DNA from: a virus
Length of the DNA stretch: 64,000 nucleotides
Direction: 5' to 3' (one strand)
IMG/VR virus record: IMGVR_UViG_3300027852_000031
Span: 26,250 to 90,249 of that record
Shown here: piece after piece, positions 4,113 through 28,173 of the stretch
How positions within the stretch are numbered: position 1 is the stretch's first letter
Layout of the letters: the number at the start of each line of letters is the position of its first letter
The notes under the pieces: model-generated
What the model saw: the letters and a program-made list of their open reading frames with translations, nothing else
What the model was told of the DNA's origin: nothing
Databases searched by the model: none
Program-made: the position numbers and the translations under genes

Positions 4113-6260
4113 ATGTCAGATAAAAATACAAATAAGACTACAAAACCCGAATCTGCCAGTGTCAAAAATGACAATCTATACTCTTGTGGGCCAAATAGTC
4201 TAAAAGAACATAGATTGCCAGATGTGTGTCATGCGCATAGAGGGCTGCCCCGTAGAGCTATCGCATCTGATACTAATCTTCGGAGTGGTTTTAATAGATA
4301 TGACCAAGACGCTGCACGCCCAGACGACAAACTGCCGACAGAACATGGTGATATTATTTTGGCTTGTCAATCAATTTATCGTAAAGTCGGAATGGTCAGA
4401 AATATTATTGATCTGATGACAGATTTTGCAGCAGAAGGTTTAGAACTACAACATCCAATTAAAAGTCAGGAAAAATTCTTTAGGGAATGGGCTCGCCGTG
4501 TTAATCTTTCTGGTCGTGCGCATGATTTTATGAAACTACTGATGAGAGATGCCAATGTGATCGTAAGACGAAAGAATGCGATACTTAGTATTCCTATGGC
4601 CCAAAAAATGGCAAAGGGCGGTGTGTCTATCACAGAGACTGTTGACGAGACTATTGTCACAGATATTCCAACCAAAGTTGATGTTCCAAAAGCTAAACAC
4701 AAAAAACGAGAAATACCATGGAAATATACATTTATATCTCCAGTAATTGTAGAAAAGATTGGGGATGATGTTGGTAGATTTTTTGGTTCAGATGATTTGG
4801 GTATGCGAATACCGACATCTTTGGCCAACTCGATAAACAATCCATCCACCAATACCGCTAAGAAGTTTTTAAAAGAATTACCACCAGAAATAATTCGAGC
4901 AGCGAAGAATAGTGGTAGATTAATTAAACTCGACATGAGCAGGATATATGTTGATTATTACAAGAAAGACGACTGGGAAGACTGGGGAACGCCATTTTTG
5001 TATGGTGTTTTGGAAGATGTGATGTTTAAAGAAAAAATGCGATTAGCTGATATGGCTGCGCTCGACGGTGTAATTAATGTTATTCGCATTTGGAAGCTAG
5101 GAAAATCAGACAGCCAAATATTACCCACTCCCGCCGCTGTAGATAAATTGATAGATATTCTTCAGCACAACGTTGGCGGCGGTGTCATGGATTTGGTTTG
5201 GGATGATATGATCGATTTACAGGTAGAGTATCCGCCGATTGATAAAATTCTGGGAGCCGATAAATATCAAGGAGTTAACACAGATATAGTTCGTGGTTTG
5301 GGTATTCCAGATTCACTGATCGGTGGTGCCGATCTTGGTACCCGTAATGCCCAATCGGCTTTTGTTCAATTGAAAACATTGGTTGAACGATTGGAATATG
5401 TGAGAAGCAGAGCTATCCGATGGATGGATGGTGAATTGCGGCTAGTGGCAGATGCAATGGGGTTTAAGCGGATTCCAGCAGTTAATTTTGGTATTATGTC
5501 GCTTCGAGACGAAGCGGCTGAAAAACAACTAATAATTCAGTTGTTGGATCGTGGTATTATATCGTCAGAAAAGGTAACAGAAGTTTTTGGTGTGAATTAT
5601 GGTATTGAGTTAGAAAGAATGAGAACAGAGCAGACAATTAGAGACAATAGTTCTGGCATATTAGAAAAATCTAATCCATATAATAGGCCCTTTTCTGTTA
5701 TGGAAAAACAGAATGAATTGGCTATTGAGTTAGAAAGAGTTAAGCAGAATTGTTCAGATTCTGGAACGTCAGAAGACGATAATGGTGGTGGAGATAATCC
5801 TAATGGCGATCAGCCACGAGACGACGGTAATAATTCGCCAGGTAAGCCACCATCTACTACTGATACCAAAGTTCGGGATACACGGACACCAAAGACTTTA
5901 TCTACATTATACATGATAGGGTTTCAATATTTAGATCAAATAGATAAATTGATTAATAAAAATTACCTAAAATCATGTAAAGCAAAAAACATGCGGTTAC
6001 TGACAAAAGAACAAAAACTATATTTAGAAAGAGTGAAGAGAGGTATTTTGTCTGTATTACGACCAGGAGACATGGTTACAAATAAACTAATAGCAGAAAG
6101 ATTGTCTGATGTTAACGTTGGTGATTCAAAATTAGAAAATGTGTTTAATCGTTTGATTGGTGATTTTACGTCGTCAACTAACGATTCGCCAACTTTCACA
6201 GAACGTAAAGTTTTAACAGCCACAGCATGGGCTGATTTTGTGAACGATATTGATAGATAA
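4113..6260 (+). CDS. Portal protein
   Basis: 715 aa, between terminase and protease/capsid genes; portal-like helical core (DWGTPFLYGV, GLGIPDSLIGG), low-complexity C-terminal region. Confidence 0.8.
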   Translation: MSDKNTNKTTKPESASVKNDNLYSCGPNSLKEHRLPDVCHAHRGLPRRAIASDTNLRSGFNRYDQDAARPDDKLPTEHGDIILACQSIYRKVGMVRNIIDLMTDFAAEGLELQHPIKSQEKFFREWARRVNLSGRAHDFMKLLMRDANVIVRRKNAILSIPMAQKMAKGGVSITETVDETIVTDIPTKVDVPKAKHKKREIPWKYTFISPVIVEKIGDDVGRFFGSDDLGMRIPTSLANSINNPSTNTAKKFLKELPPEIIRAAKNSGRLIKLDMSRIYVDYYKKDDWEDWGTPFLYGVLEDVMFKEKMRLADMAALDGVINVIRIWKLGKSDSQILPTPAAVDKLIDILQHNVGGGVMDLVWDDMIDLQVEYPPIDKILGADKYQGVNTDIVRGLGIPDSLIGGADLGTRNAQSAFVQLKTLVERLEYVRSRAIRWMDGELRLVADAMGFKRIPAVNFGIMSLRDEAAEKQLIIQLLDRGIISSEKVTEVFGVNYGIELERMRTEQTIRDNSSGILEKSNPYNRPFSVMEKQNELAIELERVKQNCSDSGTSEDDNGGGDNPNGDQPRDDGNNSPGKPPSTTDTKVRDTRTPKTLSTLYMIGFQYLDQIDKLINKNYLKSCKAKNMRLLTKEQKLYLERVKRGILSVLRPGDMVTNKLIAERLSDVNVGDSKLENVFNRLIGDFTSSTNDSPTFTERKVLTATAWADFVNDIDR

Positions 6261-24261: not shown

Positions 24262-24861
24262 ATGGGACACTATGAAATGAACAATTTTGACTTACCAAGC
24301 AATCTATTTGATCTAGAAGCAGCAATACAGGCTGCTGGCGTTTTGTTGCGTGAACATATGTCTTGGCAAACTGACTATAAACGATTATTAAAATTGCTTT
24401 ATATTTCGGATAGAGAATGCCTGCGAAGTGGCGGATATATGATTACATGGGATCGTTCTATTTCTACCACATTCGGTCCGGTGCCACAAAAAATTGATGA
24501 ATTAATGATAGGCCAAGCTATTGATATTGTTGATTGGGATAAATTTTTTGAGCGACGTAACACGGAGATAAGACTAAAAGAACACCCAGGGATAGGTAGC
24601 TTATCAAAATTTCAGATCGACATACTACAAGCAGTAGCTAAAAAATTTATCGATTTTAGCGATGGGGAATTGACACAATATTGTATGACCAATTATCGTG
24701 AGTATTATTCTGGTTGTTGTCTCCGACCTATCTTAGTTAGAGATATTTTGTTACAAATTGGATTCTCGTTGTCTAAGGCTAATGATATAATGAGTGAAAT
24801 TGGGTGTCGATCTATGGCAAACAAATTTTTTAGTACTACAGACAAACCGAATAAATCATAA
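24262..24861 (+). CDS. Panacea (SocA/DUF4065) domain antitoxin-like protein
   Basis: KRLLKLLYISDRECL...ITWD...FGPVP matches the Panacea signature (KLLY...GPV). Confidence 0.75.
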   Translation: MGHYEMNNFDLPSNLFDLEAAIQAAGVLLREHMSWQTDYKRLLKLLYISDRECLRSGGYMITWDRSISTTFGPVPQKIDELMIGQAIDIVDWDKFFERRNTEIRLKEHPGIGSLSKFQIDILQAVAKKFIDFSDGELTQYCMTNYREYYSGCCLRPILVRDILLQIGFSLSKANDIMSEIGCRSMANKFFSTTDKPNKS

Positions 24862-24869
24862 ACGGCGAT

Positions 24870-25466
24870 ATGAATATGCACCATAAAATTTTATTTACAG
24901 AATCTGAAATACAGAAACGTATTTCTGAGCTAGCCAAGGAGATAGATTCATATTACCGGTCAGATGATTTGTATAGCACATCGAACCAGCCGTTATTGAT
25001 AGTCAGTATTCTTTCTGGTTCAGTATTCTTCGCTGTAGATTTGGTTCGTCAACTGTCTATTGGTGTAGAACTGGAATTCGTTAAAGTATCAACTTATCCA
25101 GATGGACAGACAATAGCTCAAGATCCAAAGATTGTTGTCCCACTATCCAGGAAAAGGCTACACGATGTCTGCATATTACTTATTGACGACATATTAGACA
25201 CTGGTGTGACTTTAAACGCAATCAAGAATCAGGTAGCGTGGCCGTACAGGGATAATGTAAAGTCTGCTGTGTTATTGAAGAAGAATACGATCAAACCACA
25301 AATTCAGTCTGCAGATTTTGTTGGATTTGAAATACCAGATGTTTTCGTTTATGGATATGGCTTAGATTTAGGTGGACTACAGAGAGAGTTGCCACATATA
25401 GTATCTTGTGATGATTGTGAAATTAAAGATGAGGAGATCGGAGTAGAATGGACACAAAAAAGATAA
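24870..25466 (+). CDS. hpt: Hypoxanthine-guanine phosphoribosyltransferase
   Basis: ILFTESEIQKRISELAKEI, ILSGSVFFAVDL, PRPP loop LLIDDILDTGVTL, VGFEIPDVFVYGYGLD. Confidence 0.92.
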   Translation: MNMHHKILFTESEIQKRISELAKEIDSYYRSDDLYSTSNQPLLIVSILSGSVFFAVDLVRQLSIGVELEFVKVSTYPDGQTIAQDPKIVVPLSRKRLHDVCILLIDDILDTGVTLNAIKNQVAWPYRDNVKSAVLLKKNTIKPQIQSADFVGFEIPDVFVYGYGLDLGGLQRELPHIVSCDDCEIKDEEIGVEWTQKR

Positions 25467-25705
25467 AACAACAATTGGCCCAGATTAAAAATGCCACTGG
25501 TACGAAACATGTTAAAACTCTAATTTTTGAATTGTGCTCTGTTGTGGATAAACTGATTATAGAAGTTGATAGAATCCAAAATCCTCCGACTGTCGTATTG
25601 CGTAGTCAACCCAACGATGTAGAAGCTAACATTCCTGGATTTATGCCAGTTGTGTCGTCGAAAGATGGGTGTAGTCCAGGAACCAATAATGATGAGGCAA
25701 AATAA
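25448..25705 (+). CDS. Hypothetical protein
   Basis: 85-aa ORF coupled to its neighbours. Confidence 0.55.
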   Translation: MDTKKIKQQLAQIKNATGTKHVKTLIFELCSVVDKLIIEVDRIQNPPTVVLRSQPNDVEANIPGFMPVVSSKDGCSPGTNNDEAK

Positions 25706-26697
25706 TGTTTGATATTAAGTCACATACCTGCGATGTTGTATCGGTTAGGCTTGAGACGCATCCAAATGCCGATTCTTTGAGCCTAGTCATGATAGGCGAT
25801 TTCCAATGTGTTGTTAGAACAGCTGATTGGAATGATGGAGATTTAGGAATTTACATTCCGCCAGACAGCATAGTTCCGGATAATGACACCTTTGCATTCC
25901 TCGGTAGACACAGGAGAATTAAAGCCAGAAAGCTTAGGGGCGAATGGTCTGTTGGGTTATTGATTCCAGCACCATCAGGAGCCAAGATTGGTGATGATTA
26001 TATGGAACCACTTGGTGTTGTTCATTATGACCCAGAAGTCAAGGGTCGATTTACAACTGGCGGCGACAACATACGGTTACCAAAACCTCCAAAAGAAACA
26101 TCACAGAGTGGTATTTATATGCCCGTATATGATGTCATGAATTTTCGTAAGTATTCGCGATTGTTTGATGAGGGGGAAGAAGTTGCTGTCACCGAAAAAA
26201 TCCACGGGGTAAATGCTAGGTTTGTTTGTATCGACGATCAAATGTATTGTGGATCTAGACGATATTGGAAAAAAGAAGACAAGAATAGCTTATGGTGGAA
26301 AGCTCTGAACAATTCAGATGCCGTAAAAGCATGGTTGAGACACAATCAAGATACAGTATTGTATGGAGAGGTGTTTGGTGCTGTACAAAGTTTAAAATAC
26401 GGTGCCGCCAATGGCGAAATTTTCTTAGCTATTTTTGATATTATGCAGAATGGTGAATGGGTTGATTACGACAGCGCCAGAGCATTCGGAGCTGCGCTGC
26501 CGTGGGTACCACGGGTATATCGTGGTCCGTATGACAAAGATAAGATTCTTGAATTAGCCGAAGGCGATAGTATTTGGCCGGGTGCCAACCATCATGCAGA
26601 GGGAGTTGTGGTAAAACCAATAACTGAGAGAACAGATCCGAAGATTGGTCGTGTCCAATTAAAGGTGGTAAGTAACCGATATTTGAGTAAAAGCTAA
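25705..26697 (+). CDS. ATP-dependent RNA ligase (DRB0094-like) with N-terminal tRNA-binding-type OB domain
   Basis: Motif I TEKIHG, YGEVFG, EGVVVKP, LKVVSNRYL; N-terminal HPNADSL...KLRGEWSVGLL resembles the PheT/Trbp111 OB fold. Confidence 0.88.
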   Translation: MFDIKSHTCDVVSVRLETHPNADSLSLVMIGDFQCVVRTADWNDGDLGIYIPPDSIVPDNDTFAFLGRHRRIKARKLRGEWSVGLLIPAPSGAKIGDDYMEPLGVVHYDPEVKGRFTTGGDNIRLPKPPKETSQSGIYMPVYDVMNFRKYSRLFDEGEEVAVTEKIHGVNARFVCIDDQMYCGSRRYWKKEDKNSLWWKALNNSDAVKAWLRHNQDTVLYGEVFGAVQSLKYGAANGEIFLAIFDIMQNGEWVDYDSARAFGAALPWVPRVYRGPYDKDKILELAEGDSIWPGANHHAEGVVVKPITERTDPKIGRVQLKVVSNRYLSKS

Positions 26698-26927
26698 TGG
26701 GAAAAATTTATCGAATTATCAGATGGATTATGTGTTTTTTCGGCAAACATGAATATTGGTGTCGTGCACGTATAGGTGTATTCCGGGCAGAAGATCAATG
26801 TATCAATTGTGGCAAAACAGTTTTATACTATTCGCCAGAATATCTTATCAAATATAGACACGATGTTTATTGGTATGAGAGCCCAATTGTCAGAAAACAC
26901 CAAGTAGAAAGGGTTAATGATGCTTAA
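26697..26927 (+). CDS. Small Cys/His protein (DUF1660-like)
   Basis: MCFFGKHEYW...CINCG pattern. Confidence 0.5.
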   Translation: MGKIYRIIRWIMCFFGKHEYWCRARIGVFRAEDQCINCGKTVLYYSPEYLIKYRHDVYWYESPIVRKHQVERVNDA

Positions 26928-27384
26928 TTTTACGTCCGGCAATATGTTTGAAATTGATGCTGATATTTTGATTAATACTGTTAACTGTGTCGGCGTGATG
27001 GGTTGTGGTGTTGCGTTAGCATTCAAGAATAAATATCCAGAAATGTTTCAATCTTATAGGCGTATATGTAAGAGAAAAACCAATACATTGTTGCCAGGAA
27101 TGATTCATGAATATAAAACACAAGATGACAAAACTGTTCTTAACTTTGCCACAAAAAATCATTGGAAGAATCCATCCGAATATTCATACGTCGAATCTGG
27201 TTTGAAAAGATTACAATCTTGGCTATCTGGATGTAAATCTGGCACAACCGTTGCGCTGCCAGCACTCGGATGTGGCCATGGTGGTCTCGATTGGTCGATT
27301 GTCCGACAAATGATCGAGCAATATCTTGGCGATTTAGACAATGTCCAAATTTACGTATTTCAACCACAGGATTCTAGGAGATAA
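26917..27384 (+). CDS. Macrodomain ADP-ribosylhydrolase, DarG-like
   Basis: NTVNCVGVMGCGVA, NFATKNHWKNPS, ALPALGCGHGGLDW. Confidence 0.88.
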   Translation: MMLNFTSGNMFEIDADILINTVNCVGVMGCGVALAFKNKYPEMFQSYRRICKRKTNTLLPGMIHEYKTQDDKTVLNFATKNHWKNPSEYSYVESGLKRLQSWLSGCKSGTTVALPALGCGHGGLDWSIVRQMIEQYLGDLDNVQIYVFQPQDSRR

Positions 27385-27386
27385 AA

Positions 27387-27686
27387 ATGCCATATATACC
27401 GAAGGAAAACAGAGAACACTACGACGAATTAATCGAATCGTTGGCAAAACATTTAGCAGAAGTTCGATTGCGTGGTGGGAATAGTGCCATAGCAGGCGAA
27501 CTCAACTACATTATTTATCGTCTGACTTATATTCTATGTCACCATTCTCCCGGAACCAGTATTGGTTATGCCGGAATAGCAACTATTCTATCTGCAATGA
27601 ATGAAGCCCAAAGCGAATTGCGTCGTCGAGTTTTAGTACCATACGAAGATAACAAAATACTGCAGAACGGTGATGTATCTATATAG
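27387..27686 (+). CDS. Conserved phage protein of unknown function
   Basis: MPYI...GELNYII...ELRRRVLVPYEDNKILQNGDV pattern recurrent in phage genomes. Confidence 0.7.
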   Translation: MPYIPKENREHYDELIESLAKHLAEVRLRGGNSAIAGELNYIIYRLTYILCHHSPGTSIGYAGIATILSAMNEAQSELRRRVLVPYEDNKILQNGDVSI

Positions 27687-27850
27687 CCAATAAATTCAAG
27701 GTTGGTCAAATTTGGTACGGTAGAAATATAAAAATTCGTATATTACATGTCGGTGTAGGTATTTTGACAGTTGAGAGACTCGATTTAGGACAGCCGACGA
27801 TAAAATTGATGTGGTGTATAGATAGTATGAAGGGGATGTCTTTATCATAG
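27683..27850 (+). CDS. 55-codon ORF with apparent non-canonical ATA start
   Basis: (I/M)ANKFKVGQIWYGRNIKIRILHVG...; no upstream ATG/GTG/TTG in frame; GGTGA 9 nt upstream; overlaps the previous TAG. Confidence 0.45.
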   Translation: MANKFKVGQIWYGRNIKIRILHVGVGILTVERLDLGQPTIKLMWCIDSMKGMSLS

Positions 27851-27947
27851 TTGTATCCTACCGGACGCGATAGGATAGTTAGCTTATCTACCATGTGTAG
27901 AAAAAGTATTAGACACCGATGTACAACTGAATAGGTCGGTGTCGGTT

Positions 27948-28020
27948 TGCGGGGTAGAGCAGTGGTTAGCTTGTCTGTTTCATAAGCAGAAGGTCGTCAG
28001 TTCGAATCTGACCCCCGCTA
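27948..28020 (+). tRNA. tRNA-Met(CAT), initiator-type body with atypical anticodon stem
   Basis: Full cloverleaf: acceptor TGCGGGG/CCCCGCT, D stem GAGC/GCTT, anticodon arm TCTGT-TTCATAA-GCAGA, T arm GTCAG-TTCGAAT-CTGAC, A73; no encoded CCA. Confidence 0.93.
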
Positions 28021-28026
28021 TTTGTT

Positions 28027-28173
28027 GACGATGGTAAGTGCTGATTTGTTAGGGTGGCACGCAACAGGAGTTGGCTGTACGGCGGGGTGTTCCGATTCAA
28101 CCGCCATGCCAAAATCAGGACCATAGGGCAAAAGTATATGCACGGAACTGTTGTTCGAATCAACCCATCGTCG
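28027..28173 (+). ncRNA. tRNA-like RNA with 8-bp acceptor stem, 4-bp T stem and ~115-nt structured interior
   Basis: GACGATGG/CCATCGTC, GTTG-TTCGAAT-CAAC, U8-A9 equivalents, G discriminator, then a T-rich run; 6 nt after tRNA-Met. Confidence 0.65.

What the first reader, a model, noticed from the sequence alone, without database searches (positions are those of the whole stretch)
27948..28020. Initiator-type tRNA-Met that keeps formylation determinants but has lost two of three anticodon-stem G-C pairs
Seen: 1:72 mismatch (U:U), G2-C71, C3-G70, A11-U24 and A73, all initiator marks; but the anticodon stem has U29-A41, G30-C40, U31-G39 instead of GGG/CCC, and U32. Known: the three G-C pairs are the initiator hallmark, the middle pair is the least dispensable in E. 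coli, and enteric VapC toxins cut tRNA-fMet at this stem-loop. Inference: a toxin-resistant replacement initiator tRNA.
Basis: partly seen in the sequence, partly recalled or inferred. Interest (0 to 1): 0.66.

Follow-up and report, generated by a model that had tools for sequence, protein, structure and literature searches.

The report
Phage initiator tRNA with rewritten stem
A marine phage carries its own "start" tRNA whose anticodon stem keeps only the one base pair the ribosome cannot do without; many unrelated phages make the same kind of change while cells almost never do, possibly to dodge host enzymes that cut the start tRNA, but that benefit is untested.

Summary
Observation confirmed base by base. 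Window 27948-28020 is the only CAU tRNA of an uncultured 166-kb phage. It has an initiator body (81% identical to E. coli metZ, 53-56% to metT/ileX) and the stem U29-A41, G30-C40, U31-G39 with U32. It is not unique. Among 92 viral initiator-type tRNAs sampled without regard to the anticodon arm, only 28 keep all three G-C pairs, 13 lose both outer pairs, and 88 keep G30-C40, the pair E. coli genetics shows is essential. Lak-A2 has the same triad; phiM12 and vibriophage ValKK3 have close ones. Cells rarely do this (position 31 not G: 3 of about 392 proteobacterial genes versus 14 of 92 viral). Viral third-pair changes favour Y31-G39 (27 versus 8), beside the VapC cut site A38/C39. So a working replacement initiator is likely (about 0.85). 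Toxin escape is plausible but untested (about 0.45): the host is unknown, close relatives keep the canonical stem, and most phage copies keep G31-C39. The scan noted a similar tRNA in another genome (e1-5325458). Verdict: new variant of a known kind; the phage-wide pattern matters more than this gene.

The parts
27948..28020 (+). tRNA gene, initiator (fMet) type, anticodon CAU, no encoded CCA
27948..27954 (+). Acceptor 5' strand: U1 (mismatched with U72), G2, C3, G4-G7; formyltransferase elements
   Evidence: determinants from PMC7949028 and PMC9976931
27957..27972 (+). D arm with the initiator-type A11-U24 pair
27974..27990 (+). Anticodon arm: U29-A41, G30-C40, U31-G39, U32, CAU (27981-27983), A37, A38
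27996..28012 (+). T arm
28013..28020 (+). Acceptor 3' strand ending in U72 and discriminator A73
28027..28173 (+). Neighbour, not part of the tRNA: conserved tRNA-shaped RNA (8-bp acceptor-like stem plus T arm) starting 6 bases after A73; it also directly follows the canonical fMet tRNA in relatives G013/G023
   Evidence: no Rfam match
27850..27945 (+). Neighbour: conserved structured stretch (two hairpins and a 25-nt conserved motif) directly before the tRNA; function unknown
24262..27686 (+). Context: Panacea antitoxin domain, phosphoribosyltransferase, RNA ligase, macrodomain and DUF6899 genes upstream of the tRNA slot
   Evidence: synteny

Best explanation
A working, accessory phage initiator tRNA whose anticodon stem has been selected to differ from the host's. 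Shown: the sequence features and their distribution. Inferred: it is transcribed with the accessory island, trimmed and given CCA by host enzymes, charged by host MetRS through CAU, formylated through the open 1:72 position with G2-C71, C3-G70 and A11-U24, and accepted into the P site because G30-C40 is intact. The changes at 29:41, 31:39 and 32 remove the stem-loop sequence and shape shared by host initiators, including C39 at the A38/C39 bond that enteric VapC cuts. A host nuclease aimed at tRNA-fMet (VapC-like or another anticodon nuclease) would then deplete the host pool but spare this copy, keeping phage translation initiation running. Working initiator about 0.85; escape as the main reason for the stem about 0.45 overall.
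For: 59/73 identity to metZ vs 41 to metT and 39 to ileX. G30-C40 kept in 88/92 arm-unbiased viral fMet bodies and 198/202 pooled, vs 71% of 798 viral elongators. In 31 distinct two-pair-loss tRNAs, 30 keep a weak or mismatched 1:72 and all keep G30-C40. E. coli survives on single mutants ua/GC/GC and GC/GC/cg and on cg/GC/cg, but not on mid-pair AU or CG (PMC5389676). Position 31 not G: 14/92 viral vs 3 of about 392 in 300 Pseudomonadota genomes (Fisher p 1e-8). In 120 Bacillota genomes 128/134 are canonical and the six variants all stay purine:pyrimidine. Viral third-pair changes are Y31-G39 27 times vs R31-U39 8 times (p 0.002), in 16 body clusters, although G31-U39 is only one transition away. 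All 8 large vibriophages fetched (KVP40 type) carry G39 while positions 27-29 vary. Three of four lineages of this family with the gene carry G39. The VapC cut at A38/C39 is stated in PMC4105405. Neighbours include an RNA ligase, a macrodomain and a Panacea domain.
Against: No host identified, so neither its initiator nor its toxins are known. 76/92 viral initiators keep G31-C39 and 28/92 are fully canonical, including cultured Bxz1, phiAS4, SCTP-2 and pEa_SNUABM_44. G013/G023 carry a canonical stem in the same slot, and five relatives with the slot lack an fMet gene there. The recognition rules of the enteric VapC are described as unknown in PMC10264068; the mutational paper (Walling and Butler 2018) was not available. 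The counts are not corrected for shared descent or tRNA exchange between phages. The exact triad ua/GC/ug has not been tested in E. coli; the single 1st-UA mutant grows poorly at 22 C and the double cg/GC/cg works poorly.
Confidence: 0.45

Rival explanations
1. Plain supplement under relaxed constraint. The tRNA only adds initiator capacity or replaces generally degraded tRNA. As an extra copy it needs only G30-C40, and the outer pairs drift through whatever the ribosome tolerates, helped by the 39.5% G+C genome.
For: The gene is accessory and patchy in the family. Many phages keep the canonical stem. The variant spectrum partly follows E. coli tolerance: A29-U41 is commonest, C29-G41 nearly absent (1/202), and the 3rd-CG mutant is not among the cold-sensitive ones while 3rd-AU is. 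Positions 27, 28, 32, 33, 37 and 38 also vary more than in cells.
Against: G31-U39, tolerated in E. coli and one mutation away, is rare (2/202), while C31-G39, two transversions away and G+C-neutral, is the commonest change (24/202). G39 is held across eight vibriophages.
Confidence: 0.3
2. Selected difference for another reason: protection from a phage-driven destruction of host tRNA (self versus non-self), or changed initiation behaviour (weaker IF3 proofreading, better use of phage starts with weak or no Shine-Dalgarno).
For: The same non-neutral pattern. The three pairs act at the IF3-release step (PMC5389676); G29-C41 and C32-A38 shape the initiator loop (PMC2528185), and both are changed here.
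Against: No PIN nuclease in the genome and no recognisable tRNA nuclease in the Pfam batches (proteins under 110 aa not scanned). Late genes have ordinary ATG/GTG/TTG starts, many with a purine-rich Shine-Dalgarno-like stretch. Re-initiation needs the same initiator features as de novo initiation (PMC2268962).
Confidence: 0.15
3. It works as an elongator Met, a dual initiator/elongator, or a lysidine-modified Ile2 tRNA.
For: It is the only CAU tRNA in the genome; two initiator stem pairs are lost; AUA is 46% of Ile codons.
Against: The 1:72 mismatch and A11-U24 are kept; identity to metT and ileX is only 56% and 53%. The phage has tRNA-Ile(UAU) for AUA and no TilS. Phage phi-pp2 carries a G39 variant beside two other CAU tRNAs with non-initiator bodies, and GodonK and other loci carry an fMet-type copy beside a second CAU tRNA.
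Confidence: 0.07
4. A decaying pseudogene or integration-site remnant.
For: Weaker anticodon arm; the genome encodes an integrase; the gene is absent from several relatives.
Against: All stems pair, changes are compensatory on both strands, the same triad recurs in unrelated phages, and the gene is full length in mid-genome.
Confidence: 0.03

Closest known systems
Bacterial initiator tRNA-fMet (E. coli metZ, locus L417:88-164)
   Same: 81% identity; open 1:72, G2-C71, C3-G70, G4-C69, A11-U24, A73, G30-C40, CAU, A37, A38, variable loop.
   Different: U1:U72 instead of C1:A72; U29-A41 and U31-G39 instead of G-C; U32; G57; no encoded CCA.
Phage-encoded tRNA-fMet genes (357 INPHARED records match metZ); closest are Sinorhizobium phage phiM12 (91.7%), Prevotella phage Lak-A2 and vibriophages ValKK3 and D484
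   Same: Initiator body with only the middle G-C pair. Lak-A2 has the identical triad; phiM12 has U-A/G-C/C-G; ValKK3 has A-U/G-C/U-G plus U32.
   Different: The window's phage family has no cultured member and no known host. In the records fetched the variant copies are annotated only as tRNA-Met or not at all; I found no paper on their stems.
Natural cellular exceptions to the three-G-C rule (alphaproteobacteria, mycoplasmas; PMC5389676)
   Same: Outer pairs replaced, middle pair kept, function retained.
   Different: Cellular variants keep purine:pyrimidine order (A29-U41, G31-U39). This tRNA flips both outer pairs to pyrimidine:purine.
Phage tRNAs proposed or shown to evade host anticodon nucleases (van den Berg et al. 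2023, PMC10264068)
   Same: Same logic: a phage tRNA altered near a nuclease cut site.
   Different: That paper concludes that phages facing the enteric VapC generally avoid encoding tRNA-fMet and deals with loop changes. Here the changes are in the stem of an initiator, and resistance is not shown.

Membership tests
Bacterial-type initiator tRNA-fMet | Anticodon CAU on a cloverleaf | tested here: met
Bacterial-type initiator tRNA-fMet | Mismatch or weak pair at 1:72 | tested here: met
   U1:U72, (the 5' end is inferred from alignment, not mapped)
Bacterial-type initiator tRNA-fMet | G2-C71, C3-G70, A73 and purine11-pyrimidine24 | tested here: met
   determinants
Bacterial-type initiator tRNA-fMet | Three consecutive G-C pairs at 29:41, 30:40, 31:39 | tested here: not met
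   Only G30-C40. So it is not a canonical initiator; it is filed as a variant. Natural exceptions exist and the middle pair suffices in E. coli.
Bacterial-type initiator tRNA-fMet | Formylated and used at start codons | not testable with these tools
   needs biochemistry or genetics
Elongator tRNA-Met | Watson-Crick 1-72 pair and pyrimidine11-purine24 | tested here: not met
   U1:U72 and A11-U24; 56% identity to metT
tRNA-Ile2 (lysidine) | Elongator body, TilS substrate, needed for AUA | tested here: not met
   53% identity to ileX; genome has tRNA-Ile(UAU) and no TilS; the modification itself cannot be tested here
Nuclease-resistant phage tRNAs | Sequence change at or next to a known cut site | tested here: met
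   G39 instead of C39 at the A38/C39 bond
Nuclease-resistant phage tRNAs | Host carries the nuclease and the phage tRNA resists it | not testable with these tools
   host unknown; no cleavage data
Phage initiator tRNAs that read a private start codon (earlier scan notes) | Non-CAU anticodon matched by non-AUG starts of late genes | tested here: not met
   anticodon is CAU; late genes have ordinary candidate starts

The most novel reading that the evidence does not exclude
Phages across many families have repeatedly reduced the universal three-G-C signature of the initiator tRNA to the single ribosome-essential pair and flipped the 31:39 pair to Y31-G39 as a counter-defence against tRNA-fMet nucleases. 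This would make initiator-tRNA cleavage a widespread anti-phage defence, and this tRNA one of its most complete escape forms.
Probability: 0.35. Interest if true: 0.62.

Novelty: new variant of a known kind. Interest (0 to 1): 0.36.

Why it matters
The three G-C pairs are among the most conserved tRNA features in all domains. The survey here shows that phage initiator tRNAs break the rule often and in a direction cells do not use, while holding the pair that E. coli genetics singled out. That is a natural confirmation of the laboratory rule. If the changes also block VapC-type cleavage, they would show that initiator-tRNA nucleases act against phages, and they would provide ready-made nuclease-resistant initiators. 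Cultured carriers (ValKK3, phi-pp2, phiM12) make this directly testable. The single gene in this window is one ordinary member of that class.

Tried and rejected
Host identification failed: the portal matches only uncultured viruses and, weakly, phage G; the phosphoribosyltransferase points to mixed phyla; the exact-protein look-up was empty. No RNA holder was listed, so expression is untested. Walling and Butler 2018, Winther and Gerdes 2011 and the 2019 review were not held; the VapC cut site rests on secondary statements. Literature searches for phage initiator tRNAs lacking the three G-C pairs found nothing specific. No formyltransferase, TilS or PIN gene in the genome; a peptide deformylase is present but also in relatives without the tRNA, so it shows only a formylating host. 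No promoter or terminator above chance near the gene. Low-threshold ARAGORN output was noise and was ignored. The portal tree is unresolved at the window's branch, so no order of stem changes is claimed. Loss of the first and third pairs is not significantly coupled (p 0.07). The arm energy had an offset error and was redone. The tally (47/118 canonical) used an approximate list of loci and a pattern that fixes part of the arm, 89 is the better sample. A host lineage with this stem as its own initiator was considered: the U29/non-G31 pattern occurs in 5 of 185,579 GTDB genomes, four of which also hold a canonical copy, and three lie in phage-like tRNA arrays; the pattern is narrow, so other body types were not covered. 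tRNAscan-SE is not available here.

Full report
What is there. The window is part of a 166,379-base phage record, 39.5% G+C, from a marine metagenome, with terminase, portal and tape-measure genes. It is the only CAU tRNA in the genome. The other tRNAs (Lys-UUU, Leu-CAA, Leu-UAA, Arg-UCU, Ile-UAU) lie about 100 kb away and match the most used codons of their families. None encodes CCA.

Which kind of CAU tRNA. It matches E. coli metZ at 59 of 73 positions, against 41 for metT and 39 for ileX. The formylation elements listed in PMC7949028 and PMC9976931 are present. Ile2 is unlikely because the phage reads AUA with its own UAU tRNA and has no TilS. Phage phi-pp2 carries a G39 variant of the same body beside two other CAU tRNAs, which points to a separate role. 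The genome has a peptide deformylase, so the host formylates; this gene is also in relatives without the tRNA.

How unusual it is. Not very, among phages. The nearest cultured match is phiM12 at 91.7% identity, with U-A/G-C/C-G. The identical triad occurs in Lak-A2 and in several unrelated viral contigs. I sampled viral contigs with a pattern covering only the acceptor and D arm. Of 92 distinct CAU-bearing genes, 28 have three G-C pairs and 13 have lost both outer pairs; 29:41 is G-C in 31, 30:40 in 88 and 31:39 in 76. Some of these are host genes at prophage ends, so the true phage share of variants is probably higher. With position 29 forced to be non-G, 119 of 120 hits still had G30-C40. 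Viral elongator tRNAs from the same loci have G30-C40 in only 71% of 798. Among 31 distinct two-pair-loss genes, 30 keep a weak or open 1:72 position and all keep G30-C40 (positions 2-3 were partly imposed by my filter). This agrees with PMC5389676: E. coli lives on ua/GC/GC, GC/GC/cg, au/GC/gu and cg/GC/cg initiators but not on mid-pair AU or CG. The exact window triad was not tested there. I infer a working initiator with probability about 0.85.

Phage versus cell. In 300 Pseudomonadota genomes, 3 of about 392 initiator genes have a non-G at 31, against 14 of 92 in viruses (p 1e-8). In 120 Bacillota genomes, 128 of 134 are canonical and the six variants are A29-U41 and/or G31-U39, the purine:pyrimidine type already described. 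One fixed pattern with U29 and non-G31 hit 27 real tRNAs in viral contigs but only 5 of 185,579 GTDB genomes; four of those hold a canonical copy elsewhere and three sit in phage-like tRNA arrays. So pyrimidine:purine flips are mainly a phage feature.

Selection or drift. In the pooled set of 202, third-pair changes are C31-G39 24, U31-G39 3, A31-U39 6, G31-U39 2 and U31-A39 1. The flip needs two transversions, while G31-U39 needs one transition and is tolerated in E. coli, so simple drift predicts the opposite ratio. The 27 G39 genes fall in 16 body clusters, and 22 have a non-G39 nearest neighbour, which suggests repeated origins, though 29 bases give weak phylogeny. Eight large vibriophages all carry G39 while positions 27-29 vary; that may be shared descent under purifying selection. 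In this family the syntenic slot after the RNA ligase and DUF6899 genes holds G-C/G-C/U-G in G001, G-C/G-C/C-G in G002, a canonical stem in G013/G023, and no fMet gene in G018, G010, G006 and G022; G020 has a different, chimeric CAU tRNA. Enteric VapC cuts between A38 and C39 (PMC4105405), so G39 changes the cut site, and U29 and U32 should also remove the A37 triple and the C32-A38 pair of the initiator loop (PMC2528185; inference). [quoted passage not shown] From memory, unverified here: AtaT reads the G-C pairs of the acceptor stem, which this tRNA keeps, so any escape would be limited to anticodon-arm enzymes. I put nuclease escape at 0.45, relaxed constraint at 0.30, other selected functions at 0.15, non-initiator use at 0.07 and decay at 0.03.

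Context. The gene lies in an accessory island with Panacea, phosphoribosyltransferase, RNA ligase and macrodomain genes. The ligase is conserved next to the slot in relatives with and without the tRNA, and Panacea was not found in the relatives' loci, so the neighbourhood is suggestive only. A conserved tRNA-shaped RNA follows six bases downstream and a conserved structured stretch precedes the gene; neither is in Rfam.

Comparison and novelty. Phage tRNA-fMet genes are common (357 INPHARED records), cellular exceptions to the rule are published, and nuclease evasion by phage tRNAs is a published hypothesis. I found no paper describing the loss of the outer G-C pairs or the Y31-G39 flip in phage initiators, within a library that lacks most subscription journals. 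The scan noted a similar remodelled initiator in another genome. Interest 0.36.

Noticed in passing
window 28027-28173 (+); L293 about 5055-5225; L296 about 3850-3700 (-); L294 about 4865-5010; L305 (-): Conserved tRNA-shaped RNA with an 8-bp acceptor-like stem showing compensatory changes and a T arm, no anticodon arm recognisable, not in Rfam; directly follows a CAU tRNA in the window, G013/G023 and G020.
   Followed up: partly
window 27850-27945 (+); L305 about 8365-8257 (-); L052:15286: Conserved 25-nt motif between hairpins directly upstream of the tRNA; same arrangement before the CAU tRNA of G020, and before a terminator-like hairpin in G021. Single copy in this genome. Possibly a small RNA or processing element.
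   Followed up: partly
L293 about 4918-5050 and L296 about 3995-3865 (-): A second structured RNA of about 135 nt starts right after a tRNA discriminator base in relatives G001 and G018, with compensatory-looking hairpins; absent from the window.
   Followed up: no
L305:8185-8257 (-): Chimeric CAU tRNA in relative G020: initiator-like acceptor with U1:U72, but U11-A24, G-C/G-C/U-A stem and a 4-nt variable loop.
   Followed up: no
G000 C1:162976-163056 (-), locus L318: tRNA-like gene with normal acceptor, D and T arms but an enlarged anticodon loop of about 15 nt; ARAGORN cannot assign an anticodon.
   Followed up: no
G000 C1:157298-157374 (-): tRNA-Ile with anticodon UAU, rare in bacteria; AUA is 46% of Ile codons in this genome; also in several relatives.
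   Followed up: partly
L407, L376, L348, L358, L403: Initiator-type bodies with non-CAU anticodons (AAC, CCU, GAC, GAC, GUU) turned up in the arm-unbiased viral sample (5 of 99).
   Followed up: no
window 24262-24861: Stand-alone Panacea (SocA-like) antitoxin domain; not found in the syntenic loci of relatives.
   Followed up: partly
G000 outside the window (alignments A2-A4): The genome encodes DNA polymerase III alpha, RecA, ribonucleotide reductase, ThyX, IMP dehydrogenase-like, two ClpP-like proteins, a BrxL-like ATPase, ThiF, an integrase, GDP-mannose dehydratase and glycosyltransferases.
   Followed up: no
L423 (Roseobacter phage DSS3P8); L162, L357, L368, L339: A few phage initiator bodies lack even G30 (U30-G40 or C30-G40), which E. 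coli data predict to be non-functional in initiation.
   Followed up: no
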